A stretch of 63,903 bases of DNA, the filler included, from Vicugna vicugna (Eukaryota), in the NCBI GenBank assembly GCA_013265495.1. It is 81 parts of 79 records of this genome, joined end to end, with 100 filler letters (N's around TTAATTAATTAA, not from the genome) between each part and the next. Parts side by side here need not be neighbours in the genome. Positions count along the whole stretch, not along the records: positions 13,797 to 14,699 come from PNXW01007729.1; 80 more parts are not named here. One strand, 5' to 3'. This document shows, piece after piece, positions 1 through 51,524 of this stretch. A model generated the notes under the pieces. That model saw nothing but the letters and a program-made list of their open reading frames with translations. It was not told the DNA's origin and ran no database searches. Both the position numbers and the translations under genes were made by a program. Within the stretch, counting starts at the first letter, position 1; every line of letters starts with the position of its first letter.

Positions 1-824
1 AGGGAACACAAGCTAAGGGATTCTAATAGAACCCAGGAGCTGCTGAAATTTGGAGTAGCCTCCCCATGCTTAGGATTCCAGAAAACTTCTTCGTGTGTGT
101 GCTGTTGGTGGAGAAACAGTGTCCACGCATATTCCAGGGGGCAAAGGTATTCCCTTGTTGTGGGTTGTTGGTTAAACACCTCAACTTCCCATGGAGAGGC
201 ACTCCCCAATACTTGGATTTAGAGCCCAAATCCCACTTTGAACCGCACTCCAGCTTATGCAATCCATCGGGGAAGAGAAGTTTAAGGATTCTACTAGAAC
301 ACTGGCACTGCTCTCAGTTGGTGGAACTTTCCTACTCTCAGAATTCCGGAAGCCAACCTTGTGTGGCGGGGATTTGTGGAGCCACAATCCAAGTAGATGA
401 ATGGGGTCACACTTGTTTCCCATTAGGGAGAAGTCCTCTAAATAATTCCATATTCCATCGGGGGGCAGTTGCTGCTACTTGGCCTCCAAGCCAAACTTCG
501 AGATTTCCCTCTCAGAACGGCATAGGGAAACACTCAAGGAATACACGCTAAGGGATTCTATTAGAACCCAGGCGCTGCTGTCATTTGGAGGAGCCTCCCC
601 ACAATCAGAATACCTGAGCACGTCTCCGTGTGTGTGCTGGAGGTGCGGAATCAGAGTCCACGCATCTTTATGGGGGCACAGGTGTTCCAAGGTTGGGGAA
701 GAAGTTTCAAATCCTCCACTGCCCACAGAGATACACTCGCTTATTCTTGGCTTTAGAGCCCATTCCCAACCATCGCAGATTAGGGAATACAAGCTGAGTT
801 ATTCTATTTGAACGCAGGCGCTGC
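1..824 (+). repeat. Satellite family A (diverged ~267-bp monomers, higher-order array)
   Basis: Anchor AAGCTAAGGGATTCTATTAGAACCC-like motif recurs near 10, 279, 545 and 791. The same monomer types occur in five other scaffolds. Confidence 0.85.
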
Positions 825-924: not shown

Positions 925-1843
925 TCCCGAGGAATATCATGATAGACACACGGGGAAACAGAGCAGAAGATGGGTGTTAGGCAGCCCAGAAGAGCTCCTC
1001 TGTATTTCCGAGGCAAAGTGGGGCCGTTGACTTAATCACAGGGACAAAGTGAGGATGAACTTTTCCCTGCTCTGTCCCATACTTCATGATATGCTTTTCC
1101 CTGCATAAGGAGTTCATTCGGAAGTCCCTGGTGGTGTTTCTGNNNNNNNNNNNNNNNNNNNNNNNNNNNNNNNNNNNNNNNNNNNNNNNNNNNNNNNNNN
1201 NNNNNNNNNNNNNNNNNNNNNNNNNNNNNNNNNNNNNNNNNNNNNNNNNNNNNNNNNNNNNNNNNNNNNNNNNNNNNNNNNNNNNNNNNNNNNNNNNNNN
1301 NNNNNNNNNNNNNNNNNNNNNNNNNNNNNNNNNNNNNNNNNNNNNNNNNNNNNNNNNNNNNNNNNNNNNNNNNNNNNNNNNNNNNNNNNNNNNNNNNNNN
1401 NNNNNNNNNNNNNNNNNNNNNNNNNNNNNNNNNNNNNNNNNNNNNNNNNNNNNNNNNNNNNNNNNNNNNNNNNNNNNNNNNNNNNNNNNNNNNNNNNNNN
1501 NNNNNNNNNNNNNNNNNNNNNNNNNNNNNNNNNNNNNNNNNNNNNNNNNNNNNNNNNNNNNNNNNNNNNNNNNNNNNNNNNNNNNNNNNNNNNNNNNNNN
1601 NNNNNNNNNNNNNNNNNNNNNNNNNNNNNNNNNTCCTGGCTGAGGGATTAAGTGTCCACACTAACCCTAATAGAATCTCTCTGAAACAAAGGCGGATTCA
1701 CTTTTAAATGTCTGTAAACCGGCGGGCTGCACCTCCCTCCCCCCTTGGCTACAAGACAGTTCTCTTCCTTGCTGATTCCTTTCTGGATGTAGGGAAGCAA
1801 TCCGGCACACAGCCAGGGTGGACTGGCCTCCAGGTAGACTTAC

Positions 1844-1926
1844 CTTCTGTCTGTGTCCAGTCCCATGACGTCCTCCTTCTTGAACGGGATGTAGACGAGG
1901 GGGATCTTGTCCTCAGATTTCTTGGG
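1844..1926 (-). pseudogene. TRAPPC9: TRAPPC9-like first coding exon, 3' end (copy 2), followed by a GTAAGT donor and intron
   Basis: The minus strand reads PKKSEDKIPLVYIPFKKEDVMGLDTDRR|gtaagt, versus TRAPPC9 ..[27 protein letters not shown]. The intron (1843 down to ~1707) aligns with 14565-14699. The visible part is open, so pseudogene status is unproven. Confidence 0.8.
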
Positions 1927-2026: not shown

Positions 2027-3300
2027 GAGCTCGAGAGACAACTCCACGAAGCTCTCTTCGGTGACAGGTTTTCCATGTACGGGGAGGTTCGAGAAATAAC
2101 TTCCCTGACCTTGGGGAGACAGCTTCTGACACTGGGAAATCCTGCAATCACCCCTAGCATTCCCTGGCACAGAGACATTAGGAAAACCCTCAGGGGAGAC
2201 GAGCTTAGGCATTCCGTTAGAACCCACGCGGTGCCGACCGTTGGTGGAACCTCCCCACNNNNNNNNNNNNNNNNNNNNNNNNNNNNNNNNNNNNNNNNNN
2301 NNNNNNNNNNNNNNNNNNNNNNNNNNNNNNNNNNNNNNNNNNNNNNNNNNNNNNNNNNNNNNNNNNNNNNNNNNNNNNNNNNNNNNNNNNNNNNNNNNNN
2401 NNNNNNNNNNNNNNNNNNNNNNNNNNNNNNNNNNNNNNNNNNNNNNNNNNNNNNNNNNNNNNNNNNNNNCGTGCTGCCGACCGTTGGTGGAACCTCCCCA
2501 CGCTCAGGATTCCGGAAACATTGTCAGTGCGTGGGGGAGCTCGAGAGACAACTCCACGCAGCTCTCTTAATTCACAGGTGTTCCCTGTGCGGAGAAGGCC
2601 GAGAATACATTCCTTGACATTGAGGAGGCAGCCTCTTTCCCTGGGATATCCTGCAATCACCGCTAGCAGTCCCTGGCTCAGAGACAATAAGAAAACACTT
2701 AGGAAAGACTAGCTTAGGAATTCCGTTAGAACCCACACGCTGCCGACCGCTGGTGGAACCTTCCCACGCTCAGGATTCCGGAACCATTGTCGGTGTGTGG
2801 GGGAGCTCGAGAGACAACTCCACGCAGCTCTCTTCAGTCACATGTTTTCCCTGTTCGGGGAAGTCCGAGAAATAACTTCCCTGAGCTTCGGGAGGCAGCC
2901 TCTGTCACTNNNNNNNNNNNNNNNNNNNNNNNNNNNNNNNNNNNNNNNNNNNNNNNNNNNNNNNNNNNNNNNNNNNNNNNNNNNNNNNNNNNNNNNNNNN
3001 NCGTTGGTGGAACCTCCCCACGCTCAGGATTCCGGAACCATTGTCAGTGCGTGGGGGAGCTCGAGAGACAACTCCACGCAGCTCACTTCAGTCACTGGTG
3101 TTCCATGTTCGGGGAAGCCCGATATATACCTTCCCTGAACTTGGGGAGGCACCCTCTGACACTGGGATATCCTGCAATCACCCCTAGCATTCCCTGGCAT
3201 AGAGAAATTAGGAAAACACTCAGGGGATACGAGTTTAGGCATTCAGTTAGAACCCACGCGCTGACGACCGTTGTGGGAACCTCCCCACGCTCAGGATTCC
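2027..3300 (+). repeat. Satellite family B (267-bp CpG-rich monomer)
   Basis: Repeated GAGCTCGAGAGACAACTCCACGCAGC...GTTGGTGGAACCTCCCCACGCTCAGGATTCCGGAACC units. Confidence 0.95.
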
Positions 3301-3400: not shown

Positions 3401-4487
3401 TAGAGTATAGAATGAGGAACACAGAATATAGAATATAGAATAAAGGATATTGAACGCAGAATTTAGTACATGGAATGCAGAACACAAAATTTACAATATA
3501 GAATACAGAATACTGAATATAGAATTTCGAATATAGAATGTAGAAATCAGAATATAGAATATAGTATACAAAATCAAGAATATAGAATTAAGAAAAAGNN
3601 NNNNNNNNNNNNNNNNNNNNNNNNNNNNNNNNNNNNNNNNNNNNNNNNNNNNNNNNNNNNNNNNNNNNNNNNNNNNNNNNNNNNNNNNNNNNNNNNNNNN
3701 NNNNNNNNNNNNNNNNNNNNNNNNNNNNNNNNNNNNNNNNNNNNNNNNNNNNNNNNNNNNNNNNNNNNNNNNNNNNNNNNNNNNNNNNNNNNNNNNNNNN
3801 NNNNNNNNNNNNNNNNNNNNNNNNNNNNNNNNNNNNNNNNNNNNNNNNNNNNNNNNNNNNNNNNNNNNNNNNNNNNNNNNNNNNNNNNNNNNNNNNNNNN
3901 NNNNNNNNNNNNNNNNNNNNNNNNNNNNNNNNNNNNNNNNNNNNNNNNNNNNNNNNNNNNNNNNNNNNNNNNNNNNNNNNNNNNNNNNNNNNNNNNNNNN
4001 NNNNNNNNNNNNNNNNNNNNNNNNNNNNNNNNNNNNNNNNNNNNNNNNNNNNNNNNNNNNNNNNNNNNNNNNNNNNNNNNNNNNNNNNNNNNNNNNNNNN
4101 NNNNNNNNNNNNNNNNNNNNNNNNNNNNNNNNNNNNNNNNNNNNNNNNNNNNNNNNNNNNNNNNNNNNNNNNNNNNNNNNNNNNNNNNNNNNNNNNNNNN
4201 NNNNNNNNNNNNNNNNNNNNNNNNNNNNNNNNNNNNNNNNNNNNNNNNNNNNNNNNNNNNNNNNNNNNNNNNNNNAATATAGAAAACAAAATATAGAAGC
4301 CAGAATTTAGAACATGGAATGCAGAACACAAAATTTATAATATAGAAAACAGAATACTGAAGATAGAATTTAGAATATAGAATGTAGAACACAGTATAAA
4401 GAATATAGAATACGGGATTCAGAATATAGAATGTAGAGTATAGAATGAAGAACACAAAATACAGAATATAGAATAGAGAATATAGAA
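3401..4487 (+). repeat. Satellite family C (AGAATAT heptamer-based)
   Basis: Continuous 7-mers of form (A/G/T)GAA(T/C)NN; large internal gap. Confidence 0.95.
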
Positions 4488-4587: not shown

Positions 4588-5299
4588 GAACACCTGTGCC
4601 CCCATAAAGTTGCATGGACTATGTATCCCCAACACCAGCACACACACAAAGAATTCTTTAGGTATCCTGAGTGTGGGGAGTCTCCTTCAAGTGACAGCAG
4701 CGCATGGGTTCTAATAGAATAACTCAGCTTGTATTCCTTGAGTGTTTCCCTAAGCCTGGCTGGGAGCAAATTTTGGGGGTTGGGCTTGGAGGCCAAGTAG
4801 AAACTTGTGCCAAAAGATTGACTCAGGAAGTACTTAGGGAACTCCCCTACAGGGGAACACCTGTGTCACCATTCATCTGCGTGGATTGGGGCTGCACACC
4901 TCCGCCACACAGAAGAGGGTCTCTGGAGATCTAAGTGTACGGAAGTTCCTCCAAATGACAGCAGCACCTCGGTTCAATACAATCTCTTATCTTGTCTTTC
5001 CTGATGGCTTGCCCTGCCAGGAGTGCGGGGGAAATTGGAGGTTGGGCTCTAAAACGAAATATTAGCGAGAGACTATCCTTGGGATGTGGGTGTATAACTT
5101 ACAACCCACAACCCTGAAATAACTCTGCCCCCTGAAATATGCTTTGACTCTGTTTCAATACATCCAGCACAGACACGAAGAATTGTTCTGGTTTCTGAGT
5201 GTGGGGAAGTTCCTTCAAATTACAGAGGCACCTGTATTCTAATAGGAATCACTTAGCTTGACTTCCCTAAGTCTTTTCCTAGACCTAGCAGTGAGCGAT
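4588..5299 (-). repeat. Satellite family A
   Basis: Reverse complement of the A anchor motifs (GGGTTCTAATAGAAT..CTTAGCTTG). Confidence 0.85.
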
Positions 5300-6017: not shown

Positions 6018-6855
6018 AAAGAATACAGAATAAAGAATTAAGAATATAGAAAGTAGAACACACAATATAGAATATAGAATAGGCAATATAGAACCCAGAA
6101 TTTAGAACATGGGATGTAGAACACAGAATTTAAAATATAGAATGCAGAATACTGAATATAGAATATAGAATACAGAACGCAGAACACAGAATATAGAATA
6201 TAGAGTACGGAAAGTAGAATATAGTATAAAGAATATAGAATGTTGAACACAGAATATAGAATTAGGAAAACAGAATGCAGAACCCANNNNNNNNNNNNNN
6301 NNNNNNNNNNNNNNNNNNNNNNNNNNNNNNNNNNNNNNNNNNNNNNNNNNNNNNNNNNNNNNNNNNNNNNNNNNNNNNNNNNNNNNNNNNNNNNNNNNNN
6401 NNNNNNNNNNNNNNNNNNNNNNNNNNNNNNNNNNNNNNNNNNNNNNNNNNNNNNNNNNNNNNNNNNNNNNNNNNNNNNNNNNNNNNNNNNNNNNNNNNNN
6501 NNNNNNNNNNNNNNNNNNNNNNNNNNNNNNNNNNNNNNNNNNNNNNNNNNNNNNNNNNNNNNNNNNNNNNNNNNNNNNNNNNNNNNNNNNNNNNNNNNNN
6601 NNNNNNNNAAAATTTAGAACACAGAATATAGAATATGGAAAACAGAATACAGAACCCAGAATTTAGAAAATGGAATGCAGAACGCAGAATTTAGAATATA
6701 GAATACAGAATATTGAATATAGAATTTACAATATAGAATGAAGAACACAGAGTATAGAATATGGAATAAGGAATACTGAATATACAATTCAGAATATAGA
6801 ATGTAGACCTCAGAATATAGAATATAGAATAGAGAATATAAAACCCAGAATTTAT
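6018..6855 (+). repeat. Satellite family C
   Basis: AGAATAT/AGAACAC/AGAATTT heptamer array. Confidence 0.95.
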
Positions 6856-6955
6856 NNNNNNNNNNNNNNNNNNNNNNNNNNNNNNNNNNNNNNNNNNNNT
6901 TAATTAATTAANNNNNNNNNNNNNNNNNNNNNNNNNNNNNNNNNNNNNNNNNNNN

Positions 6956-7447
6956 TTCTGCAATCCGGAGTCTATATTCTATATATCTGTGTTCTACATT
7001 CTATATTCTTTATTCCATATTCTGCATTCCGTATTCTATATTCTATATTCTGCATTCTATATTCTAAAATTCTATATTCAGTATTCCGTATTCTATATTT
7101 TATACTCTGGCTTCTACATTCTATATTCTAAATTTCATATTAAGTATTCTGTATTCTTTATTCTAAATTCTGTGCTCTGCATTCCATGTACTTAATTCTG
7201 GGTTCTATATTCTCTATTCTATATTGTATATTTTGTGTTCATCATTCTATATACTATGTTCTATATTCTGCATTCTGTAGTCTATATTCTATTCTCTGTG
7301 TTCTACATTCTATATTCTTAATTCTACATTCAGTATTCTGTATTCTATAATATAAATTCTGTGTTCTGCCTTTCGTGTTCTAAGTTCTTGGTTCTATATT
7401 ATATAATCTATATTCTATTTTCTGTGTTCTATATTCTATATTCTAAA
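6956..7447 (-). repeat. Satellite family C
   Basis: ATATTCT heptamer array (reverse strand). Confidence 0.95.
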
Positions 7448-8420: not shown

Positions 8421-8955
8421 AAATGTGTACACGAGTCTAGATGAAATTAGTACATTTATAGAGGAGAAAACATTACTAATCCAGATGACCTACACTCAGG
8501 AATGTATATTTGTTGAATCCGTCATATATGTAGCAAGTACGGAACATGGAATATCATGTAGATGGAATCTATTCAAATAAAATATCTCTAGGGAAGATTA
8601 CGCTCCAAAAGGGTTTTTGTGTGATCAAACTGTGATTCTAGAAACTGGTGATAGGAAGAAGCTACAAAGTCAAAGTAAATTTTTCAGAGTGCATAGGTAA
8701 CTTGTTTGGTGGTTGAAACAACAGTCATGCGCATGTTCACAACTCAGAAAACTCAGAAATGCATGTTTCAGGAATCCGTGATGCATGAAACATGCTCATA
8801 ATACGGAATTCCATGGTTATGTAAACAATGTAAATTACATGTGTATTGGTGAGAATTTGCTCATAGAGATTTTTCTGGTGCCATATGACCGAAGTAAAAC
8901 CTGGTGATACGAAAAATCTTTGAAGTCAGAGTAAATATTTCTAAGTCTATATACG
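8421..8955 (+). repeat. Satellite family D
   Basis: D subunit motifs (GTGTACACG..TCTAGATG, AAACTGGTGATAGGAAGAAGCTAC). Confidence 0.92.
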
Positions 8956-9055
8956 NNNNNNNNNNNNNNNNNNNNNNNNNNNNNNNNNNNNNNNNNNNNT
9001 TAATTAATTAANNNNNNNNNNNNNNNNNNNNNNNNNNNNNNNNNNNNNNNNNNNN

Positions 9056-9431
9056 AAAGAGTGTTTTCTGGTGTCAAATGTCCGATTTTAGAACATGGTG
9101 GAAGAAAAAAACTATGAAGTCAGTGTAAATTTTTCTAAGTGTATATATGCCTTGTATGGTCGGTGAAAGTTCAATAATCCACATGCTCACAACTCAGAGA
9201 CCCATGTTTTCGTATCTGTCATGCATGTAGCATGTACGGAACCCGGAATGCCATGTTGATAGAATTCATGTAAATTACATATATGTTAGAATATATGTTA
9301 GTTGGAAATCGCTCCAGAACTATTTTTCTGTGAAAAAGTACGAATTCAAAACGGGTGCTAGGGAAAGATTGTGAAAATGTGTACATGGGGCTAGATGAAA
9401 ATATTCCTTTTATAGAGGATGAAAGATTAGT
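9056..9431 (+). repeat. Satellite family D
   Basis: D subunit motifs. Confidence 0.92.
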
Positions 9432-9531
9432 NNNNNNNNNNNNNNNNNNNNNNNNNNNNNNNNNNNNNNNNNNNNTTAATTAATTAANNNNNNNNNNNNN
9501 NNNNNNNNNNNNNNNNNNNNNNNNNNNNNNN

Positions 9532-10442
9532 TTCCCTAACACCAGATTCAAATTCGTGCTTTTTTCACAGAAAAATCATTCTGGAGCGATTTCCACCTCA
9601 CAGATATGTAATTTAAATGAATTCCATCAACATGGCTTTCCAGGATCCGTACATGCTACATGCATGACGGATTCGGCAATCATACATTTCTGTCTTGTGA
9701 ACATGTGGATTACTGACCTTTCATTCACCAATAAGGCGTATATAGACTTAGAAATATTTACTCTGACTTCATAGTTTTTTCTATCACCAGGTTGTAAAAT
9801 TGGACATTTGGCACCAGAAAACACACTTTGAACGAATTATCACCAATACACATGTAATTTACATTGTTTACATAACTATGGCATTCCGTATTCCGAACAT
9901 GATTCATGCATCACGGATTCTTCAAACATGCATTTCTAAGTTGTGAACATGAGCATGACTGATGTTTCAAACACCAAACAAGTTACCAATGCACTTTGAA
10001 ATATTTATTTTGTCTTCGTAGCTTCTTCCTATCACCAGTTGAAAGAATCACAGATTGATCCCAGAAAAACCTTCTTGGAGCGGATTCTACACTAGAGATA
10101 TGAAATTTGAATAGATACCATCAACATGATATTCCGTGTTCCGTACATGATTCATACATGACGGATTCGATAAACATGCATTCCTGAGTTGAGAGCATGT
10201 GGATTACAAATCTTTCAACCTCTATAAAAGGAATATTTTCATCTAGACACGTGTACACATTTTCACAAGCTTTCCCTAACACCAGTTTCGTATTCGTGCA
10301 TTATTCACAGAAAAATAGTTCTGGAGCAGTTTAAGTTTCAACATAAGAGTAGGAAATTTACATGAATCCCAACAATATGGCATTCCGGGTTCTGTTGATG
10401 TTACATGCATGATGGATTCGGCAATCATGCATTTCTCACTTC
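9532..10442 (-). repeat. Satellite family D, more than one full ~740-bp unit
   Basis: TTCCCTAACACCAG at 9532 and 10272 (period 740) with no gap in between. Confidence 0.95.
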
Positions 10443-11393: not shown

Positions 11394-12294
11394 GATGCAC
11401 TCGCTAATACTTGGCTTTAGAGCCCATCCCCACCATCGATAACTGCTAGGCCTAGGAAAACAATTAGGGATGTCAAGCTAAGGGATTCTATTACAACCCA
11501 GGTGCTGCTTTCTGTTGGAGGAACCTCCCCACACTCAGAACCCCAGAAAACAACTTTCTTTGTGTGCTGGACGTGGGGAAAAATAGCACACGCATTTTTC
11601 AGGGGTCACAGTAATTCCCAAGTGGTGGGTTGTAGTTTAAACATCTCCACTACCCATGGAGAGGCCCACGCTAATACTTAATTTTAGATCCCAAATCCCA
11701 CTTTAATACACACACTGGCCTAGGCAAACCATCAGGGAAGACAAGCAAAAGGATTCTATTAAAACCAAGACGCTGATGTCAGTTGGAGGAACTACCCCNN
11801 NNNNNNNNNNNNNNNNNNNNNNNNNNNNNNNNNNNNNNNNNAAGCCCCACTCCATGCAGATGAATGGGTGCTCAGGTGTTTCCCTTTATGGAGAATTCAT
11901 CTAAATACTTCCTCAGTCCATCGGGGACACTCGCTGCTATTTGGCCTCAAAGCCCTAACCCCAGGTTTCTCTCAGAGTCAGTCCTAGGGAAACACTCATG
12001 GATTACAAGCTAAGGGACTCTATTAGAACCCAGCCGCTTCTGTCTCCTGAAATTGCCAGCCCACACACACGATAGCAGAAAACTTCTTCATGTGTGTTCT
12101 GGTGGTGGGGATACAGAGTCCACGCGTTTTTCAAGGAGCACAGGTATTCCCATGTTGTGGGTTTTTGGTTAATAACCTCCAAATCCCATGGAGAAGCAAT
12201 CGCTAATTCTTAGAGTTAGAGCCCAACCCACCCTTTCCCCAGCCATCCATATCAGGCAACCAAACAGGATAGACAAGTTAAGCGATTTTATAAG
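11394..12294 (+). repeat. Satellite family A
   Basis: AATACTT anchors at 11406 and 11673 (267-bp spacing); near-identical to 48857-49248. Confidence 0.9.
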
Positions 12295-12916
12295 NNNNNN
12301 NNNNNNNNNNNNNNNNNNNNNNNNNNNNNNNNNNNNNNTTAATTAATTAANNNNNNNNNNNNNNNNNNNNNNNNNNNNNNNNNNNNNNNNNNNNGTTGTG
12401 TCTTCAGGGCTGAGGCAGTTCTGAGAACGGAAAGTGTCAGTGTTGGTGTCTGGATGGATGCCACTAGAGGTGAGGGTACCTGCAAGCCGAAGGAAGAACA
12501 GAAATCATTCTCTGCTTTTTCTGTCTTGTTTCTTTGTTACTTTAAAAGAGAGGCGTAAATAAGATAGACAATCTTCCCTACTGAAATTTCAGTAATGGAA
12601 CCGTTTTTAAAGTGTTCACATCTTATATTCTGTCTATAACTGTCTTTTCAAAAAAGCATCATATTTATCAAATGTTAATTAACTCAGTTAATTAACTACC
12701 TGTTGAAACCCATTAAAGAACATGAAATGCACTATGTAATGTAAAACCGCCTGCAGTGACTATCTTAGCTTTCTTGACGGCAGTGCAGTCAGCCCCCACC
12801 ATCCCGTGGCCCTGAGNNNNNNNNNNNNNNNNNNNNNNNNNNNNNNNNNNNNNNNNNNNNTTAATTAATTAANNNNNNNNNNNNNNNNNNNNNNNNNNNN
12901 NNNNNNNNNNNNNNNN

Positions 12917-13696: not shown

Positions 13697-14000
13697 NNNN
13701 NNNNNNNNNNNNNNNNNNNNNNNNNNNNNNNNNNNNNNNNTTAATTAATTAANNNNNNNNNNNNNNNNNNNNNNNNNNNNNNNNNNNNNNNNNNNNCCTT
13801 CTCTGCAGGGGCAGGAAGCCTAGACCAAAAGCTGGGTAATGCGATCCGAGCTATGTGCAGACGCTGAGAACAAACTGTACCCCCGGATTTGCTTTGCCTT
13901 CCCTTGCCTTCTGGCTGGTACACACCAGATCACTGCAACCCAAATGCGCCCGCAGCCCACAGCACAGTATGTACCTCAATCTCCTCTCCCCTCTCCGCAG

Positions 14001-14564
14001 GGTCTGCAACATGAGCATCCCTGACTACGTGCAGTGTGCTGAGGTCTATGAGACTCTTCCCGTTGTGGTCCAACCCGTGGGGATCAACTCAGAGGAGAAT
14101 TTCTTTTGCAAAAGCGAATCTGTGAGCCAGATCAGACCGTGCGGCTCCCAGTGGGCACTCTGTATCCACTACAGGCACCACTATGCGCCCGAGAGTGGGT
14201 GGAGCAACTTCCAGACCCACCGCAAGGTGGTGGGCCCTGTCACCCTTACAGACTGCCTCTCTGCCAAGGCATTCTAGAAGCTCCATGTGCAGAGGAGCTG
14301 TATGGCACCACGCTTAATGACTCTCAGCTCTTTGTCTTTGTGCTGCATGGGGAGGTAGCTGAGCAGCCGCGCAGCGATGTGTCCTTCAATCTACGAGGAC
14401 TGCAGGGTGGTGGAGAAGAGGATTGAGGATTTAACTGAGTCATTCTTCATCTTGCCCAAGTCCAAGTGGCTGGATGCAGCCCCCAACAATTCTGGGGACA
14501 AGATCGCCCTCCGCTGCATCCCGTTTGAGAAGGAGGACACCATGGGACTGGACACAGACAGCAG
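14001..14564 (+). pseudogene. TRAPPC9: TRAPPC9-like first coding exon (copy 1), unprocessed and disabled
   Basis: Acceptor ctcccctctccgcag|14001 and ATG at 14011. [61 protein letters not shown]|gtaagt (donor at 14565) matches the TRAPPC9/NIBP N-terminus. Premature TAG at 14275-14277, followed by two frameshifts near 14292 and 14390. Confidence 0.93.
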
Positions 14565-14799
14565 GTAAGTTTCCCTGGAGGCCAGTCCACCCTGGCTGTG
14601 TTCCAGGTTTCTTCCCTACATCGAGAAAGGGATCAGCAAGGAAGAGGACTATGTTGTAGCCAAGGTGGAGGGAGGTAAAGCCAGCCGGTTTACGGACATN
14701 NNNNNNNNNNNNNNNNNNNNNNNNNNNNNNNNNNNNNNNNNNNTTAATTAATTAANNNNNNNNNNNNNNNNNNNNNNNNNNNNNNNNNNNNNNNNNNNN

Positions 14800-15389: not shown

Positions 15390-15916
15390 TAGGAGTGATT
15401 GCTGGATATCCCAGTGTCATAGGCTGCCTCCCAATGATCAGGGAAAGAATTTCTTTGATTTCCCCGAACAGGGAACACCTGTGATTGAAGAGAGCTGCGT
15501 TGAGTTGTCTCTCGAGCTCACCCACGCACTGACAATGGTTCCGGAATCCTGAGCGTGGGGAGGTTCCACCAACGGTCGGCAACGCGTGGGNNNNNNNNNN
15601 NNNNNNNNNNNNNNNNNNNNNNNNNNNNNNNNNNNNNNNNNNNNNNNNNNNNNNNNNNNNNNNNNNNNNNNNNNNNNNNNNNNNNNNNNNNNNNNNNNNN
15701 NNNNNNNNNNNNNNNNNNNNNNNNNNNNNNNNNNNNNNNNNNNNNNNNNNNNNNNNNNNNNNNNNNNCTCTCGAGCTCCCCCACGCACTGACAATGGTTC
15801 CGGAATCCTGAGCGTGGGGAGGTTCCACCAACGGTCTGCAGCGATTGGGTTCTAACGAATGCCTAAGCTCCTCTTCCCTGAGGGTTTTCCTAAAGTCTCT
15901 GTGCCAGGGAATGCTA
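15390..15916 (-). repeat. Satellite family B
   Basis: Reverse-complement B monomer. Confidence 0.95.
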
Positions 15917-19819: not shown

Positions 19820-20604
19820 GAATAACACAGAATATAGAATATAGACTACGAGGTGGAGAAAATACAAGGTAGAATATAGACTGAATAACACAAAATGTAG
19901 AATATAGTATAGAGAATATAGAACCCAGAATATAGAAATGGAATGTAGAACAAAGAATTTAGAATATAGAATACATATTAATGAATATAGACTTTAGAAC
20001 ATAGAATGAAGAACACAGAATTTAGAATATAGAATGCAGAATACTGAATATAGATTATATAAACATTAATGCAGAACACAGAATTTAGAATATAGAATGA
20101 AGAAAACTGAATAGAGTATTTAGAATATAGAATGAAGAACACAGAATATAGAATANNNNNNNNNNNNNNNNNNNNNNNNNNNNNNNNNNNNNNNNNNNNN
20201 NNNNNNNNNNNNNNNNNNNNNNNNNNNNNNNNNNNNNNNNNNNNNNNNNNNNNNNNNNNNNNNNNNNNNNNNNNNNNNNNNNNNNNNNNNNNNNNNNNNN
20301 NNNNNNNNNNNNNNNNNNNNNNNNNNNNNNNNNNNNNNNNNNNNNNNNNNNNNNNNNNNNNNNNNNNNNNNNNAGAATGTAGAACACAGAATATAGAATA
20401 TGGAAAACAGAATACAAAACTCAGAATTGAAAAAATGGAATGGAAAACACAGAATTAAGAATATAGAATACAGAGTACTGAATATACAATTTAGAATACA
20501 GAATGTAGAACAGAGAATTTTAAATATAGAATATAGTATGCTGAATATAGAAATTAGATTATAGAATGTATAACACAGAATATAGAAATTAGAATAGAGA
20601 ATAT
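19820..20604 (+). repeat. Satellite family C
   Basis: Heptamer array. Confidence 0.95.
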
Positions 20605-22818: not shown

Positions 22819-23331
22819 AAATTTTCATTTATAGAGGATGAAACATCAGTAATCCACATGCACTCATCTAAGAAATGCATGTTTTTCAAATCCGTCATGC
22901 ATGTAGCATGTACTGAATATGAAATATCATGTAGATAGAATCTATCAAATTACATATCTCTAAGGTAGGATTCGCTCCAAGCAGGTTTTTCTGGGATCAA
23001 AGTGTGATTCTTGAACCTGGTGATATGAAGAAAGTACGAAGACAAAGTATATATATTTAAGTGCATATGTAAGTTGTTATGATTGGGACATCATTCATGG
23101 GCATATACACAACTCAAAAATGCATGTTTGAGGAATCGGTATTGCATGAAACATGTTCGGAATATGGAATGCCATGGTTATGTAAACAATGTAAATTACA
23201 TGTGTATTGGTGAGAATTCGCTCAAAGAGGCTTTTCTAGTGCCAACTGTCCGATTTTAGTACCTTATGACAGAAAAAATCTATATATGACAGAAAAAATC
23301 TATGAAGTAAGAGTAAATATTTCTAAGTGTA
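22819..23331 (+). repeat. Satellite family D
   Basis: D subunit motifs; a more diverged copy. Confidence 0.9.
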
Positions 23332-25621: not shown

Positions 25622-26397
25622 TTCTAAATTCTGTGTTCTGCATTCCATATTGAAAATTCTCTATTCTCTATTCTATATTCTGTATCTACTTTCTATATTC
25701 TAAATACAATATTCAGTATTCTGTATTCTATATTCTAAATTCTCTGTTCTGCACTCCATGTTCTAAATCCTATATTCAGTATTCTTTATTCCATATTCTA
25801 AATTCTGTGTTCTGCATTCTATGTTCTAAGTTCAATGATAAGTATACTGTATTATTATATTTTTATTTCTGTGTTATGCATTCCATGTTCTAAATTCTGG
25901 GTTCTATAGTCTATATTCTATACTCTATATCTGTTTTCTACATTCTATATTCTAAATACTATATTCAGCTTTCTGTATTCTATATTATAAATTCTGTGTT
26001 CTACCTTCTATATTCTAAATTCTATATTCAGTATTATGTAATCTATATTCTAAATTCTGTGTACTGCATATCATGTTCTTTATTCTGGATTCTTTATTCT
26101 GTATTCTACATTCTATATTCTGTGTTCTACATTCTATATTCTAAATTCTATATTCAGTATTCTATAATATATATTCTAAATTCTGGGTTCTACATTCTAT
26201 ATTCTAAATTGTATATTCAGTATTCTGTATTCTATATTCTAAATACTGAGTTCTGATTTCCATGTTCCAAAATCTATACTGAGTTCTCCATGTTCCAAAA
26301 TCTGGCTTCCATATTCTCTAAGCTATATTTTTTATTCTGTTTTCTATATTCAATTTTCTAAATTATATTTTCAGTATTATGTGTTTTATATTCTATA
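25622..26397 (-). repeat. Satellite family C
   Basis: ATATTCT heptamer array. Confidence 0.95.
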
Positions 26398-26497: not shown

Positions 26498-27266
26498 GTG
26501 GATTATTAATCTTTCACCCTCTATAAAAGGAATATATTCATCAAGACACGTGCACACATTTTCACAAGCTTTCCCTAACACCAAGTTTGAATTTGTGCAT
26601 TTTCCACAGTAAATTAGTTCTGGAGCGATTTCCTCCTAACAGATATATAATTTGCATGAATTCCAACAACATGGCATTCCGGGTTCCGTACATGCTACAT
26701 GTATGAATGTCGGATTTGGCAATCATGCGTTTCTGACTTGTGAGCATGTGGATTACTGACCTTTCATCCACCAAACAATGAGTATATATACACTTAGAAT
26801 TATTTATCCTGACTTCATAGATTTTTCTATCACCAGGTTCTAAAATCGGACATGTGGCTTCAGAAATCACTCTTTCCGCGAATTCTCACAAATAAACATG
26901 TAATTTACATTGTTTACATAACCATGGCATTCCGTATTACGAACATGTTTCATGCATCACGGATTCCTCAAACTTGAATTTCTCAGTTGTGAACATGCGC
27001 ATGACTGATGTTTCAACCACCAAACAGGTTACATATGCACTATGAAATATTTATTTTGACTTCGTAGCTTCTGCCTATCACCAGTTTCAAGAATCACACT
27101 TTGATCCCAGAAAAACCCTCTTGGAGCGAATTCTACCCTAGAAATATGTAATTTTAATAGACTCAATCTCCATTGTATTCCGTGTTCCTTACATGCTACA
27201 TATACTTTGGATTTGACAAAAATGCATTCCTGAGTTGAGAGCATGTGGAATAATAATCTTTCATCC
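26498..27266 (-). repeat. Satellite family D, one full unit
   Basis: GTGGA(T/A)TA(T/A)TAATCTTTCA at 26498 and 27245. Confidence 0.95.
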
Positions 27267-29376: not shown

Positions 29377-30221
29377 ATTCTATATTCAAAATACTATATT
29401 CAGCTTTCTGTATTGTATATTATAAATTCTGTATACTACATTCTATATTCTAAATTCTATATTCAGTATTATGTAATCTATATTCTAAATTCTGTGTTCT
29501 GCATAGCATGTTGTTTATTATGGATTCTTTATTCTGTATTTTACAACCTATATTCTGAGTTCTACATTCTATATTCTAAAATCTATATTCAGTATTCTTT
29601 ATTATATATTCTAAATTCTGTGTNNNNNNNNNNNNNNNNNNNNNNNNNNNNNNNNNNNNNNNNNNNNNNNNNNNNNNNNNNNNNNNNNNNNNNNNNNNNN
29701 NNNNNNNNNNNNNNNNNNNNNNNNNNNNNNNNNNNNNNNNNNNNNNNNNNNNNNNNNNNNNNNNNNNNNNNNNNNNNNNNNNNNNNNNNNNNNNNNNNNN
29801 NNNNNNNNNNNNNNNNNNNNNNNNNNNNNNNNNNNNNNNNNNNNNNNNNNNNNNNNNNNNNNNNNNNNNNNNNNNNNNNNNNNNNNNNNNNNNNNNNNNN
29901 NNNNNNNNNNNNNNNNNNNNNNNNNNNNNNNNNNNNNNNNNNNNNNNNNNNNNNNNNNNNNNNNNNNNNNNNNNNNNNNNNNNNNNNNNNNNNNNNNNNN
30001 NNNNNNNNNNNNNNNNNNNNNNNNNNNNNNTTTAATTGTTAGTATTCTTTATACTATATCCTAAATTCTGTGTTTGCATTCCATGTTGTGAATTCTGGGT
30101 TTTATATTCTCTTTTCTATATTCTATATTCGCTGTTCTACATTGTATATTCTAATTTCTATATTCTGCATTCAGTGTTCTATATTCTTTATACTGTGTAC
30201 TACATTCTATATTCTTAATTC
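29377..30221 (-). repeat. Satellite family C
   Basis: Heptamer array; 29377-29620 closely matches ~25943-26190. Confidence 0.95.
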
Positions 30222-32248: not shown

Positions 32249-32767
32249 TGCATGTTTGAGGAATCCGTGAGGCATGAAACATGTTCATAATACGGAATAC
32301 CATGATTATGTAAACAATGTAAATTACATTTCTATTGGTGAGAATTCGCTCAAAGAGTGTTTTCTGATGACAAATGTCCGATTTTGGAACCTGGTGATAG
32401 GAAAAACCTATGAAGTCATACTAAATATTTCTAAGTGAATATATGCCTTGCTTGGTGGATGAAAGGTCAGTAATCCACATGCTCACAAGTCAGAAACGCA
32501 TTGTTGCTGAATCCGTCATGCACATGCATGTAGCATGTACAGAACCCGGAATGCCATGTTGATGGAATTCATGTAAATTACATAGCTTTTAGGTGGAAGT
32601 CGCTCCAGAATTTTTCTTTTGTGAAAAATGCACGAATTAGAACCTGGTGTAATGGAAAGCTTGTGAAAATGTGTACACGGGTCTAGATGAAAATATTCCT
32701 TTAATAAAGAATGTAAGATTAATAATCCAGATGCCCTCAACTAAGGAATGCATGTTTGTCGAATCCG
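32249..32767 (+). repeat. Satellite family D
   Basis: D subunit motifs. Confidence 0.92.
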
Positions 32768-34504: not shown

Positions 34505-35304
34505 TAGAATATGGAATGCAGAACACAGAATTTAGAATGTAGAATACAGGATACTGAATATAGGATACAGAATATAGAATGTAGAACACAAAATATAGAA
34601 TATAGTATACGGAATGCAAAATATAGTATGTAGAATCTAGAATGAAAAACACAGAATTTAGAATATAGAATAGAGAATGTAGAACCTAGAATTTAGAACA
34701 TGGAATGCAGCACACAGAATTTAGAATATAGAATACAGAATACTGAATATAGAATTTAGAATATAGAATGTAGAACACAGAATAAAGAATATAGAATACG
34801 GAATGCAGAATNNNNNNNNNNNNNNNNNNNNNNNNNNNNGTATAGAATATAGGGAACGTAAAACCCAGAATTTAGTATATGGAAACAATTCCCAGAATTT
34901 AGAATATTGAATACAGAATTCTGAATATGGAATTGAAATTATGGAATGTAGAACACAGAATATACAATGTAGAACACATAATATACAACCCAGAATTTAG
35001 AACACGTAATAGAGAACACAGAACTTAGAATATAGAATATAGAATACTGAATATAGAATTTATAATATAGAATGTAGAACACAGAATATACAATGTAGAA
35101 CACATAATATACAACCCAGAATTTAGAACATGGAATTCAAAAACAGAATTAAGAATATAGAAAAGGGAAAACTGAATATAGAATTAAGAATATAGAATGA
35201 AGATCACAGAATATAGATAATAGAATAAGGAATATAGGATAAAGAATACAGAATATAGGATTTAGAACACAGAATATTGAATATGGAAAACAGAATACAG
35301 AACA
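34505..35304 (+). repeat. Satellite family C
   Basis: Heptamer array with a 126-bp internal period (34964/35090). Confidence 0.95.
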
Positions 35305-36274: not shown

Positions 36275-37135
36275 CTGAGTTGTGAACATGCGCATGACTG
36301 ATGTTTTAAACACCAAACATGTTTCTTACGCACTCTGAAATATTTACAATGACTTCGTAGCTTCTTCCTATCACCAGTTTCAAGAATCACACTTTGATCC
36401 AAGAAAAACCATCTTGGAGTGAATTCTTCCCTAAAGATATGTAATTTGAATAGATTCCATCTACATGATATTCCGTGTTCCTTACATGCTACATACATGA
36501 CGGATTTGACAAACATGCATTCCTGAGTTGAGAGCATGTGGATTACGAATCTTTCATCCNNNNNNNNNNNNNNNNNNNNNNNNNNNNNNNNNNNNNNNNN
36601 NNNNNNNNNNNNNNNNNNNNNNNNNNNNNNNNNNNNNNNNNNNNNNNNNNNNNNNNNNNNNNNNNNNNNNNNNNNNNNNNNNNNNNNNNNNNNNNNNNNN
36701 NNNNNNNNNNNNNNNNNNNNNNNNNNNNNNNNNNNNNNNNNNNNNNNNNNNNNNNNNNNNNNNNNNNNNNNNNNNNNNNNNNNNNNNNNNNNNNNNNNNN
36801 NNNNNNNNNNNNNNNNNNNNNNNNNNNNNNNNNNNNNNNNNNNNNNNNNNNNNNNNNNNNNNNNNNNNNNNNNNNNNNNNNNNNNNNNNNNNNNNNNNNN
36901 NNNNNNNNNNNNNNNNNNNNNNNNNNNNNNNNNNNNNNNNNNNNNNNNNNNNNNNNNNNNNNNNNNNNNNNNNNNNNNNNNNNNNNNNNNNNNNNNNNNN
37001 NNNNNNNNNNNNATGCATCACTCTCAGACTTGAATTTCTGAGTTGTGAACAATCGCATGACTGATGTTTCAACCACCAAACAAATTACTGATGCACTCTG
37101 AAATATTTACTTTCACTTTGTAGCTTCTTCCTATC
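36275..37135 (-). repeat. Satellite family D
   Basis: Reverse D motifs on either side of a gap. Confidence 0.92.
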
Positions 37136-37840: not shown

Positions 37841-38357
37841 GAATATCATGTAGATTGAGTCTAATCATATTATATATATCTAGGGCAGAATTCGCTCCAA
37901 GAGGTTTTTTCTGGGATCAAATTTTGATTCTGGATACTGGTGACAGGGAGAAGTAAAGAAGTCAAAGTTAATATTCAAATTGCCTAGGTACCCTGTTAAG
38001 GTTGAAATATCCTCATGCGCATGTTCACAACTAAGAAATGCATGTTTGAGGATTCCGTGTTTCATGAAACATGTTCGGAATACGGAATGCCATGGTTATG
38101 TAAACAATGTAAATTACATGTGTATTTGTGAGAAGTCGCTCAAAGAGTGTTTTCTGGTACCAAATGTCTGATTTTAGAATCTGGTGTTAGAAAAAACCTA
38201 TGAAGTCAGAGTAAATTTTTCTAAGTGTATATATGTCTTGTTTGGTGGATGAAAGGTCAATAATCCACGTGCTCACACCTCAGAAACGCAACCTCAGAAA
38301 CGCATGTTTGCAGATTCCGTCATGCATGAAGCATGTACGGAATCCGGAATGCCATGT
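37841..38357 (+). repeat. Satellite family D
   Basis: D subunit motifs. Confidence 0.92.
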
Positions 38358-41079: not shown

Positions 41080-41731
41080 NNNNNNNNNNNNNNNNNNNNN
41101 NNNNNNNNNNNNNNNNNNNNNNNTTAATTAATTAANNNNNNNNNNNNNNNNNNNNNNNNNNNNNNNNNNNNNNNNNNNNTCTGGCCTCTGCTCAGAGGGC
41201 CTCTGTCCCAGGACTGACCGCAGCTTTTTCTTCCCTTGTCAACATTTGCTGTGCCTTTCGGAAGTTGGTCTCTTCTCTGCAATTCAACCCTGGCAGATGT
41301 GATGGTGGTCAGCGTGCTGGTGGGCAGTCACTTGGGGACTTCCAGGAGCCATGCTGTTTCCTCAGTCTCTCATTCGGGGTTACAGAACAGTCGAGCCCCG
41401 AAGGAAGCCCATTCACGTGAGGTCAACAGAGTATTTCATCACTTTCATTTTATTTTTAAATTTTCAGTGGAGAAATAATTTGTAGCAAACTGTTCCAGGT
41501 ATTCGGCCGCCTGCTTTCCTCACCACCTTTTCCTTGTTGCCTCTGGTGCTTGTTTTAAGAACATTTCCTTGTTGCCTATGGTGCTTGTTTTAAGAACGAG
41601 GTTTCTTCTCTGGTCATTTCTAGCAGCTGGGNNNNNNNNNNNNNNNNNNNNNNNNNNNNNNNNNNNNNNNNNNNNTTAATTAATTAANNNNNNNNNNNNN
41701 NNNNNNNNNNNNNNNNNNNNNNNNNNNNNNN

Positions 41732-42847: not shown

Positions 42848-43418
42848 TTTCCAATGATGGTTTTCTCATTTCTATGTCATCCTGCTTCTTTTGTCATCAG
42901 GGTCAATAATTCTCAATCTTTCTTGCAGGGTAAGTTTCCTATTGCAAGATTCTTTCCGTGTTCGCGTGTCTGTGAAACTTTTGATCTCTCCGGTTATTCT
43001 AAAGTATTGTCTTGTGGCATAGGTTATGCTAGTTTGCACGTTCTTCCCTTTCAGGGATTTGTCTCTCTCTGTGAACTCCCTTCTTGGCCTGCGACATTTG
43101 TGTTGAGAAATCTGCTGAAAGCCTGATGGAGGTTCTCTTGTGATTGACTTGTTTTAAAGGAGGTTCTCTTGTGATTGACTTGTTTTAACTTTGGTGCACT
43201 TAGAATTGTTTCTTTATCATGAAATTAGGTCCTTTTCATGACAGCATATCTTATTGTCGGTCTCTATGTGTTTCTCTTGTTTGGATCCCACTGTGTTTCC
43301 TGTTTTGGGAGAGCTGATTCTTTCTTAAGCTTGGGAAATGTTATTCTGATTCCGTCAGTTCCCTTTTCCGAAACTTTTCTCTTCCTTTTCCATCTGGGGC
43401 CCCTTTGATTCATAGAAT
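42848..43418 (-). mobile_element. LINE-1 ORF1 fragment
   Basis: GTTGAGAAATCTGCTGAAAGCCTGATGG is the antisense of the L1 ORF1 IRLSADFS motif. Confidence 0.75.
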
Positions 43419-45704: not shown

Positions 45705-46050
45705 GGTGCAGCATCTTCAGGACCTTTGGAAGCAGCAGGAGCTGCGGGAGACTCAGGAGCAGCAGGAGCTGCGGGATGGTCACGAGCAGCAGGAGCGGCA
45801 GGATCTTCAGGAGCAGCGTTAGCTGCTGGAGCTGCAGAAGCTGCAGGAGCAGCAGGAGGGAGCTCGGGGTCTCCCGTTGGATCCTGATGGTCCTGGTGTT
45901 GGTCTCTGGCATCTTCCCCTGCCCCCGCCTGCTCTGGATCTGGGACTGTTGGAAGTGGAGAGAGCTTCCAGTCTCGTGGAGGCGCTCGCTCGTGCTGTGA
46001 GAGAGGAAAACATGAGGCTCGTGCCTCCCTTTCCGTGGGCCTCTTCAAGG
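45705..46050 (-). CDS. Unassigned open frame encoding a Pro/Ala-rich repeat (partial, candidate exon)
   Basis: Open from the scaffold edge to the gap: ..ERAPPRDWKLSPLPTVPDPEQ..PELPPAAPAASAAPAANAAPEDPAAPAARDHPAAPAAPESPAAPAAS. Built from in-frame 27-bp units at 45732, 45759, 45786, 45813 and 45840. Confidence 0.4.
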
Positions 46051-47904: not shown

Positions 47905-48486
47905 TATTAGGTGGAAATCGCTCCAGAACTATTTTTCTCTGAAAAATGCCCGAATCCGATCCTGGTGTTAGGGAAAGCTTGTGAAAATGTGTACACGTGT
48001 CTAGATGAAAGTATTCCCTTTATAGAGGATTAAAGATTAGTAATCCACATGCTTTTAACTCAAGAATGCATGTTTATCAAAGCCGTCATGTATGTAGCAT
48101 GTACGGAAGACGGAATATTATGTAGATGGAATCTATGCAAATTACATATGTCTAGGGAAGAATTCGCACCAAGAGGGTTTTTGTGGGATCAAAAGATCAA
48201 AGTGTGATTCTTGAAACTGGTGATAGGAAGAAACTACAAAGTCAAAGTAAATATTTCAGAGGGCATAGGTAACTAGTTTGGTGGTTGAAACAACAGTCAT
48301 GCGCATGTTCACAATTCAGAAATGCATGTTTGAAGAATCCGAGATGCATGAATCATGCTCGTAATACGGAATGCCATGGTTATGTAAACAATGTAAAGTA
48401 CATGTTTATTAGTTAGAATTCGCTCAAAGAATGTTTTCTGCTGCCAAATGTTCGATTTTAAAACCTGGTGATAGGAAAAACCTATG
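47905..48486 (+). repeat. Satellite family D
   Basis: D subunit motifs. Confidence 0.93.
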
Positions 48487-51028: not shown

Positions 51029-51524
51029 ATTAAAGAATTTAGAATATCGAATGCAGAACACAGATTTTAGAGTCCAGAATACAAAATAGTGACTAAAGAA
51101 ATTAGAATATTTAATGCAGATCACAGAATTTAGAATATAGAATACAGAATACTAAATATAGAATTTAGAATATAGAATGTAGAACACAGAATATAGAATA
51201 CGGAAAACCGAATACAGAACCCAGAATTTAAAACATGGAATGCAGAACACAGAATTTAGAATATATATTAAAGAATACTGATTATAGAATTTAAAATATC
51301 GAATGCAGAACACAGATTTTAGAGTACAGAATACAAAATAGTTACTAAAGAAATTAGAATATGGAATGCAGATCACAGAATTTAGAATATAGAATATAAA
51401 ATACTAAACATAATATATATAACATGGAATGCAGAAAGCAGAATTTAAAATATAGAAAAGAGAATACTGAATGTACATTTAGAATTTAGAATTTAGAATT
51501 TAGAACACAGAATTTAGAATAAAG
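51029..51524 (+). repeat. Satellite family C
   Basis: Heptamer array with a 252-bp period (51061/51313). Confidence 0.95.

What the first reader, a model, noticed from the sequence alone, without database searches (positions are those of the whole stretch)
13797..14699. Candidate amplified TRAPPC9-derived family: two diverged, intron-flanked copies of the first coding exon in one 64-kb sample
Seen: copy 1 (14001-14564, +) has an intact acceptor and GTAAGT donor, a nonsense codon (14275-14277) and two frameshifts. Its coding part is 554 nt, about 30 nt shorter than the canonical exon as I recall it. Copy 2 (1844-1926, -) ends at the same donor, and about 135 bp of its intron aligns with copy 1, yet the peptides differ ([25 protein letters not shown] vs SEDKIPLVYIPFKKEDVMGLDTDRR). 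Established: TRAPPC9/NIBP, a TRAPPII subunit, is normally single-copy and well conserved. Inference: these are DNA-level (non-retroposed) duplicates, far diverged from the parent and from each other. Two copies among ~81 scraps imply a sizeable lineage-specific amplified family, possibly with expressed members encoding only the TRAPPC9 N-terminal region.
Basis: partly seen in the sequence, partly recalled or inferred. Interest (0 to 1): 0.75.

Follow-up and report, generated by a model that had tools for sequence, protein, structure and literature searches.

The report
Amplified camelid TRAPPC9 pseudogene fragments
These scraps are broken copies of the front end of the trafficking gene TRAPPC9, which camels and alpacas carry in many repeated copies that drift like dead DNA and can be mistaken for the real gene.

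Summary
14001-14564 (+) is a TRAPPC9 first-coding-exon copy with both splice sites, 30 nt shorter than the cow protein implies. 1844-1926 (-) is a second copy, 87% alike; 12395-12479 (-) is a third scrap, from a later exon. The family is real: 28 of 70 homologue clusters are short camel or alpaca 'TRAPPC9-like' models, lying on 13 chromosome-scale alpaca sequences; read contigs suggest over a hundred copies. Models splice one unit into the next, implying head-to-tail units.

It is not a family of working N-terminal proteins. None of 89 models keeps the parent frame past codon 103, which removes a core strand. Amino-acid changes match neutral expectation (mean BLOSUM -0.35; neutral -0.39 to -0.42; orthologues +0.54) and ignore conserved sites. 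An older subtype shows that this frameshift came first and the frame-restoring one later. Some copies are probably transcribed.

Best reading: a camelid segmental-duplication family carrying a pseudogene, amplified before camels and llamas split. Print searches found only one table row and two GWAS that probably name a copy. This scan already noted the family on other DNA.

The parts
13797..14000 (+). End of the intron before the first coding exon, copy 1; pyrimidine tract and AG acceptor at 13999-14000
   Evidence: Sequence; covered at family-level depth in DNA runs X1 and X2
14001..14564 (+). Copy 1: TRAPPC9 first coding exon (parent aa 1-195), ATG at 14011, 554 coding nt, pseudogenised
   Evidence: tblastn E 1.5e-48 to pika TRAPPC9; 126 of 184 codons identical to cow, five gaps totalling 30 nt
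14275..14277 (+). TAG in place of parent E97; named models read E, K or D here, so it is particular to this copy or its subgroup
14293..14391 (+). Stretch read out of the parent frame, between the old -1 deletion (codon 103) and the later -5 deletion; replaces parent aa 103-137
   Evidence: holds parent strands 112-118 and 132-135 in the model
14356..14358 (+). Second TAG, in the shifted frame; models of both genera end here, others read W, Y, K or R
14565..14699 (+). GTAAGT donor and start of the next intron, copy 1
1844..1926 (-). Copy 2: last 83 nt of the same exon, cut by a gap
1634..1843 (-). Donor and intron of copy 2
   Evidence: 119 of 135 aligned positions identical to copy 1
927..1033 (-). 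Intron-derived cryptic exon used by camel models; same scaffold and strand as copy 2, about 0.8 kb downstream of its donor
   Evidence: tblastn E 4e-05 with P0010 and P0075
12395..12479 (-). Third scrap: start of a later TRAPPC9 exon (parent aa 287-315), AG acceptor at 12481-12480
   Evidence: tblastn E 7.5e-05 to pika, 5e-12 to alpaca models
12480..12816 (-). Intron upstream of that exon
   Evidence: Sequence
41185..41447 (+). Non-TRAPPC9 cryptic exon shared with camelid models P0014, P0015, P0018 and unnamed P0473; probably part of the repeated unit (inferred)
   Evidence: tblastn E 4e-16, 27 of 28 residues to P0473
47220..47294 (+). Weak match to the last exon of one camel model (P0074); may be an unrelated repeat
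   Evidence: tblastn E 4e-06, 1 query

Best explanation
A camelid-wide, high-copy segmental-duplication family whose unit carries a dead 5' piece of TRAPPC9. Shown: the copies keep introns and splice sites, cover only parent aa 1 to about 370-386, occur in all four annotated camelid species on many chromosomes, share lesions, and change neutrally. Shown by shared lesions: a -1 deletion at codon 103 is common to every type seen, while -3, -12 and -5 deletions and 28 residue changes mark the main type. Inferred: the front of the gene was copied at the DNA level on the camelid stem, died by the -1 frameshift, and was then multiplied in waves. The likely means are unequal crossing-over (head-to-tail units) and exchange between repeat-rich regions of different chromosomes, with young genus-specific bursts. 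Inferred: a copied promoter or read-through transcribes some units and the kept splice sites join one unit to the next; annotation pipelines call these RNAs 'TRAPPC9-like' proteins. The copies are passengers of the repeat, not selected proteins.
For: 28 of 70 clusters are short camelid models. Alpaca models lie on 13 sequences over 20 Mb and 7 smaller ones, Bactrian models on 7 (contig lengths counted by hand). 715 and 249 contigs of DNA runs X1 and X2 lie on 903 nt; two X2 contigs have depth 1946 and 1595 against 9.3-11.6 for five others, 137-210-fold. 88 of 89 camelid-type proteins align to cow, none beyond aa 386. Unit-to-unit splices in P0002, P0013, P0017, P0129, P0454. 0 of 89 keep the parent frame after codon 103. 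Neutrality: 199 changes with mean BLOSUM -0.35, neutral 95% range -0.62 to -0.16, orthologues +0.54; vertebrate-invariant sites vary in 75 of 104, others in 38 of 50; rho with animal-wide conservation -0.02 against -0.46 for orthologues; copy 1 private changes 5 synonymous of 18, neutral 27-31%; exon no more conserved than intron. Older type without the -5 deletion.
Against: No camelid genome could be searched, so copy number, unit length, tandem layout and chromosomal position are indirect; the read tool states that contig depth is no copy number. Selection tests use predicted proteins, not codons, pool all subfamilies, and could hide one constrained clade. Main-type founder changes fall less often on vertebrate-invariant sites (14 of 104 against 14 of 50, p 0.043), though not on animal-wide conserved sites (8 of 43 against 20 of 110). 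The main-type ancestor probably had an open frame across the exon. The AlphaFold model of an open-frame copy still folds (mean pLDDT 70). An intact camelid TRAPPC9 was not retrieved. The older type is unnamed; its camelid origin is inferred from a shared cryptic exon.
Confidence: 0.82

Rival explanations
1. A new protein family: the -1/-5 pair created a novel 33-residue segment inside an open frame of about 190 residues, and some copies encode a working small GTPase-like domain, for example a competitor of TRAPPC9 in TRAPPII assembly.
For: Several models of both genera read through the whole exon (P0004, P0011, P0015, P0023, P0123). The exon encodes one complete Trs120 N-terminal domain. The P0011 model keeps the fold at mean pLDDT 70. 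Exon cover exceeds flank cover 2.4-fold in RNA run X16 and 6-fold in X14, against 1.0-1.1 in DNA runs.
Against: Neutral substitution spectrum and no sparing of conserved sites. The -1 shift is older than the -5 shift, so the frame was broken first. 34 models stop seven residues after the shift and 7 stop at the second TAG. K103, Y106, T109, D112, S113, R114, G119 and Y135 (74-92% conserved across animals) are lost. pLDDT falls to 51-68 over residues 101-130 although the alignment was filled with parent-type rows. The largest young alpaca subfamily is truncated.
Confidence: 0.07
2. The protein is dead but the RNA or the repeat itself is functional: spliced multi-unit transcripts act as a non-coding regulator (for instance of TRAPPC9 mRNA), or the arrays help organise camelid heterochromatin.
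For: Splice sites are intact in all three window scraps. RefSeq lists many isoforms per locus. Depth drops 22-fold at the donor in run X14 and 4.7-fold in X16, against 2.0-2.3 in DNA runs. The family has persisted in both genera.
Against: Exon DNA is no more conserved than intron. X14 has no library record, X16 also covers the introns, and contig depth is a poor measure of expression. Persistence and leaky transcription are expected of neutral tandem repeats.
Confidence: 0.08
3. Assembly artefact or a few copies only: the scraps are misassembled pieces of the true gene or of one or two pseudogenes.
For: The window consists of tiny unplaced scraps. Copy 1 is at most 80-82% identical to any named model, and no run holds half of its sampled words.
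Against: The same lesions occur in independent models from four species. Hundreds of distinct contigs lie on the stretch in raw-data assemblies. P0454 shares 32 of 35 residues with copy 1's distinctive end.
Confidence: 0.02
4. Retroposed copies or a mobile element that captured the exon.
For: High copy number and dispersal over many chromosomes.
Against: Introns are kept on both sides of two different exons; models join units head to tail; no transposase or reverse-transcriptase family was found beside the scraps (72 window frames scanned, one L1 ORF1 hit in an unrelated scrap). The scraps are too short to show unit ends.
Confidence: 0.01

Closest known systems
TRAPPC9 / NIBP / Trs120 (Pfam PF08626), the parent gene
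   Same: Sequence, exon boundaries and splice sites; 68% codon identity of copy 1 to cow. The exon encodes the N-terminal domain that matches yeast Trs120 (7u06_A, E 4.4e-07) and small-GTPase folds.
   Different: Only the first third of the gene; frameshift at codon 103, stops, neutral change; many copies. Four open-frame models gave no Pfam hit, while cow did.
Pseudogene-rich repetitive blocks of alpaca chromosomes 11, 17 and 36 (NEK10-, ATF5-, FMN2-, ACTB-, ABHD17A-like; PMC13751797: first of 8 parts of the text, section 14, first part of section 15, term searches of text and the one held supplement)
   Same: Fragmented, multi-copy gene pieces in repeat-rich camelid DNA, explained by segmental duplication and decay.
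   Different: Those blocks are described as absent or much reduced in camel assemblies, sit on one or two chromosomes and hold 5-19 copies. This family is shared by both genera, spread over at least 13 alpaca chromosome-scale sequences and seems larger. 'TRAPP' has 0 hits in that text and supplement.
Primate pericentromeric and subtelomeric duplicon families with transcribed partial genes (recalled, not from a call: NF1, FRG1, ANKRD20A, BAGE pseudogene sets; NPIP/morpheus as the selected exception)
   Same: Intron-bearing partial gene copies spread between chromosomes, transcribed and spliced into chimeric RNAs.
   Different: Different lineage and gene; older (copies about 13% apart); head-to-tail units; no sign of the positive selection recalled for NPIP.
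[quoted passage not shown]
   Same: The same family as seen by gene annotation: 0, 4 and 8 members in domestic Bactrian, Arabian and wild Bactrian camel.
   Different: Listed as an ordinary gene family without analysis; the zero for the domestic Bactrian camel conflicts with the many C. bactrianus models.

Membership tests
Functional TRAPPC9/Trs120 orthologue | Full-length open frame of about 1,140 residues | tested here: not met
   No camelid-type model aligns beyond aa 386 (88 of 89 aligned); copy 1 has two stops and frameshifts
Functional TRAPPC9/Trs120 orthologue | Purifying selection on the N-terminal domain | tested here: not met
   orthologue controls show the constraint
Unprocessed (duplicated) pseudogene | Introns and splice sites of the parent retained | tested here: met
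   intron homology shown between copies, not against parent DNA
Unprocessed (duplicated) pseudogene | Disabling lesions and neutral change | tested here: met
Unprocessed (duplicated) pseudogene | An intact parent gene in the same genome | tested here: inconclusive
   No camelid full-length protein among the 120 best rows listed in each or the cluster members listed (15 shown of up to 515 per cluster); no genome held
Processed pseudogene (retrocopy) | Introns removed, exons joined | tested here: not met
   Intronic flanks on both sides of two exons
Interchromosomal segmental-duplication family | Multi-kilobase unit copied to many chromosomes | tested here: met
   Several exons plus cryptic exons per unit; 13 alpaca and 7 Bactrian chromosome-scale sequences. 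Unit length not measured here
Interchromosomal segmental-duplication family | At least 90% identity between copies (recalled convention) | tested here: inconclusive
   Window copies are 87% alike; young subfamilies are near-identical
Interchromosomal segmental-duplication family | Pericentromeric or subtelomeric location | not testable with these tools
   Window neighbours are artificial; satellite scraps are abundant in the same bin but give no linkage
Tandem macrosatellite-like array | Head-to-tail units | tested here: inconclusive
   Implied by models splicing a donor or later exon into the next first coding exon; no DNA spanning two units was seen
Selected lineage-specific duplicon gene family (NPIP-like) | Open frames kept under selection and translated | tested here: not met
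   Pooled protein-level tests neutral; many early stops; translation not testable
Sex-chromosome ampliconic gene family | Confined to X or Y, testis-expressed | tested here: not met
   Models on at least 13 chromosome-scale sequences in alpaca; male-female depth and testis data not testable

The most novel reading that the evidence does not exclude
Inside the neutral mass, one subfamily has become functional: either a de novo camelid protein in which two compensating frameshifts rewrote 33 residues of a GTPase-like Trs120 domain, or a highly expressed RNA spliced across tandem units that regulates TRAPPC9 or marks camelid heterochromatin. The pooled tests cannot exclude one constrained clade, and run X14 shows strong exon-bounded cover dominated by paralogue letters.
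Probability: 0.12. Interest if true: 0.65.

Novelty: new member of a known kind. Interest (0 to 1): 0.3.

Why it matters
It is probably one of the larger gene-derived repeat families of camelid genomes and, unlike the alpaca pseudogene blocks described in 2026, it predates the camel-llama split. Its ordered lesions offer a record of how camelid repeat-rich regions grew. Practically, it inflates gene annotation with dozens of 'TRAPPC9-like' proteins and probably misleads mapping studies. Two dromedary GWAS name 'TRAPPC9' as a growth or body-shape candidate at chromosome 14, 31.1-31.4 Mb, once beside 'POFUT2'. That these SNPs sit in a copy is my inference; the parent's position on another chromosome is recalled, not checked. 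It does not reveal new protein biology unless a constrained subfamily is found.

Tried and rejected
No genome is held for this window, so no direct copy count. JGI metagenome scan with P0004: 47 pattern matches, 0 confirmed. Pfam: 0 significant families for the 4 exon pieces; 72 of the 83 window frames of 75 codons or more were scanned, leaving out 11 (mostly satellite frames): one L1 ORF1 hit and one sub-threshold DUF7158 hit in a satellite. PDB sequence search with the first 88 residues gave only chance hits. A camelid full-length TRAPPC9 was sought and not found among the rows shown; this is no evidence of loss. Runs with small word shares were not used as habitat evidence. Summed depths were not used as copy number. 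I first read the second TAG as the founder state; one search shows W in 28 models, including the divergent P0029 and P0531, so TGG is more probably ancestral, with TAG early and Y and K derived from it. I first took all lesions to be in one founder; one search showed older types. 'The compensating frameshifts show selection for an open frame' was rejected because the -1 is older than the -5. The AlphaFold comparison is not decisive, since parent-type rows fill the alignment. Paper searches: TRAPPC9 with alpaca (0 papers), camel (17), dromedary (4), llama (5), full protein name with camelid and copies (1), with pseudogene, segmental duplication and partial copies (33, 20 listed), TRAPPC9-like or camel (8 listed, none with the first term). 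None analyses the family. The chromosome of the parent gene could not be confirmed from papers. Most subscription journals, including the alpaca reference paper cited in PMC13751797, were not searchable, and the supplements of bioRxiv 10.1101/2025.08.28.672513 (first of two parts read) were not seen.

Full report
What the window is. It is 81 short scaffolds joined by 80 identical artificial spacers, 45,224 called bases in all. Neighbouring scaffolds carry no linkage. Many are satellites. No genome is held. The organism is a camelid by its protein matches; I did not determine the genus.

The observation. Copy 1 has an AG acceptor at 13999-14000, ATG at 14011, a TAG at 14275-14277 and a GTAAGT donor at 14565. 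Against cow TRAPPC9 it lacks 9, 3, 12, 1 and 5 nt, 30 in all, and 126 of 184 aligned codons are identical. Over aa 1-102, seven other mammals are 92-97% identical to cow. Copy 2 ends at the same donor and differs from copy 1 at 12 of 83 exon and 16 of 135 intron positions. A third scrap at 12395-12479 (-) is a later exon with its acceptor. Three further scraps match non-TRAPPC9 exons of camelid gene models, one of them on copy 2's own scaffold. So 3 of 81 scaffolds hold TRAPPC9 exons and up to 5 belong to the unit.

The family. A search with the first 88 residues returned 70 clusters from 81 candidates; 28 are short models from Camelus ferus, C. dromedarius, C. bactrianus and Vicugna pacos, and the other 42 are ordinary TRAPPC9 of pika, lizard and fishes or unnamed full-length proteins. 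No short paralogue from another named mammal appeared, which is weak evidence for camelid specificity because the search words came from the camelid copy. Cluster members place alpaca models on 13 sequences over 20 Mb and 7 smaller ones, and Bactrian models on 7 (counted by hand). In public DNA runs X1 and X2, 715 and 249 contigs lie on the 903 nt. Two X2 contigs of 200 and 280 nt have depths of 1946 and 1595 against 9.3-11.6 for five others, 137- to 210-fold. The tool warns that depth is no copy number, so I read this only as 'of the order of a hundred or more'.

The unit. Of 89 camelid-type proteins (87 named, 2 unnamed), 88 align to cow TRAPPC9, only at aa 1-195, 287-327 and 333-371, with extensions to at most 386. 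Unnamed P0473 adds aa 247-287. Many models run from the exon's donor or from a later exon into the start of another first coding exon (P0002, P0013, P0017, P0129). P0454 does so with an end nearly identical to copy 1 (32 of 35 residues). This implies head-to-tail units; I saw no DNA that spans two.

Order of events. None of the 89 reads the parent frame after codon 103. The main type also shares the -3, -12 and -5 losses and 28 residue changes at 154 sites. Among the best 150 of 321 representatives at 50% identity, 19 unnamed ones are main-type. Six others keep the parent frame at aa 121-140, so lack the -5 loss, and two of them (P0477, P0503) show the -1 shift. The second half of P0492 has the shift but not the -3 or -12 loss. 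Their camelid origin is inferred from a cryptic exon shared with a Bactrian model and the window. So the gene piece was broken first and the frame was restored later, by chance. Both genera share the main-type lesions, so that type arose before their split, dated 11-25 million years in PMC13751797 (introduction). On a tree of 49 rows the 41 copies form one side (100/100). Camelus and Vicugna each need 4 changes, and 0% of 200 bootstrap trees give 1, but no starred branch forces more than one change and the bootstrap had not settled. Young single-genus clades are well supported (P0025 and rows with short cover left out).

Selection. Using 41 and 25 distinct rows over two segments, 199 changes among copies have mean BLOSUM -0.35. 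Neutral expectation from the window's codons is -0.39 to -0.42 (95% range -0.62 to -0.16 with CpG excess); vertebrate orthologues give +0.54 (p 1.6e-4). Vertebrate-invariant sites vary in 75 of 104 cases, others in 38 of 50. Variability is unrelated to animal-wide conservation (rho -0.02; orthologue control -0.46). Copy 1's own changes in the parent frame are 5 silent of 18, taken from the 40 of 218 differences the tool displayed. Between copies 1 and 2, 9 of 10 changed codons alter the residue. Against this reading: founder changes spare vertebrate-invariant sites slightly (14 of 104 against 14 of 50, p 0.043), though not animal-wide conserved ones (8 of 43 against 20 of 110). The tests also pool subfamilies and use predicted proteins.

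Structure. The parent exon folds as one alpha/beta domain (pLDDT 85) that matches yeast Trs120 and small GTPases. The shifted stretch covers strands 112-118 and 132-135 and eight residues 74-92% conserved across animals. An open-frame camel model still folds at pLDDT 70, with 51-68 over the shifted part, but its alignment was filled with parent-type rows; this is not decisive either way.

Expression. RefSeq lists many isoforms per locus, which usually reflects RNA-seq support (my knowledge of the pipeline). Exon-to-flank depth is 1.1 and 1.0 in the DNA runs, 2.4 in RNA run X16 and 6.0 in X14; the drop at the donor is 2.3, 2.0, 4.7 and 22-fold. X14's letters at 14487 and its loose ends match paralogues, not the parent. 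X14 has no library record, X16 also covers introns, and contigs measure expression poorly, so this is a hint of spliced transcription. Translation was not testable.

Mechanism. Most likely (0.82): a DNA-level duplication of the front of TRAPPC9 on the camelid stem, early death by frameshift, then waves of amplification by unequal crossing-over and exchange between repeat-rich chromosome regions, with passive transcription and splicing across units. Homology, intron retention, lesions, dispersal and neutrality are shown. Tandem layout, recombination mechanism, heterochromatic location and promoter retention are inferred.

What is known. PMC13751797 describes pseudogene-rich blocks in alpaca but not TRAPPC9. 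PMC10568864 lists a TRAPPC9-like orthogroup of 0, 4 and 8 genes without analysis. PMC10357240 and PMC8027435 (passages only) name TRAPPC9 as a candidate at dromedary chromosome 14, 31.1-31.4 Mb; I infer a copy. My searches found no analysis of the family. Earlier notes of this scan reached the same reading on other DNA and add a 54-kb unit and a link to POFUT2, neither checked here.

Verdict. New member of a known kind; interest 0.3.

Noticed in passing
whole window: 81 scaffolds are joined by 80 spacers of 44 N, a 12-base stop-in-all-frames linker and 44 N; adjacency is artificial.
   Followed up: yes
window 55202-55758, also 2027-3300, 15390-15916, 57152-57902: GC-rich 267-bp tandem satellite (2.1 copies, 95% match) with 85-90% relatives in several scraps. 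The unit length equals that recalled for the South American camelid NOR satellite; not confirmed.
   Followed up: partly
window 3401-3594, 4276-4487, 6020-7445, 19820-20604, 25622-26397, 29377-30221, 34505-35302, 51029-51524: AT-rich 7-bp satellite with 21- and 63-bp higher-order periods.
   Followed up: no
window 8421-10442, 22819-23331, 26498-27266, 32249-32767, 36275-36559, 37841-38357, 47905-48486, 59057-59654, 62520-62889: A further repeat family, 80-92% alike over 300-700 nt, about 36% GC with kept CpG; probably a long-unit satellite.
   Followed up: no
window 1-824, 4588-5299, 11394-12294, 48587-49315: Diverged (70-90%) relatives of each other and, weakly, of the 267-bp satellite.
   Followed up: no
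window 53355-54019: 239-bp tandem repeat, 2.7 copies.
   Followed up: no
window 42875-43153 (-): L1 ORF1 fragment, Pfam PF17490, E 1.7e-4, just under the curated cut-off.
   Followed up: no
window 45705-46050: GC-rich 9/27/54-bp repeat with open frames on both strands and no Pfam hit.
   Followed up: partly
window 13833 to 14272-14276: Contigs of DNA run X1 and RNA run X16 skip about 440 nt here: a family member with a genomic deletion of the acceptor and first half of the exon.
   Followed up: no
P0470, P0473, P0477, P0482, P0492, P0501, P0503 (unnamed): Older types of the family, closer to the parent and lacking some shared deletions; useful for dating the waves.
   Followed up: partly
PMC10357240 Table 2; PMC8027435: Dromedary GWAS hits at chr14:30.8-31.4 Mb are assigned genes such as TRAPPC9, POFUT2, DDX27, CSE1L and SUPT20H, and several other hits lie within 100 kb of chromosome starts; this pattern suggests collapsed repeats.
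   Followed up: partly
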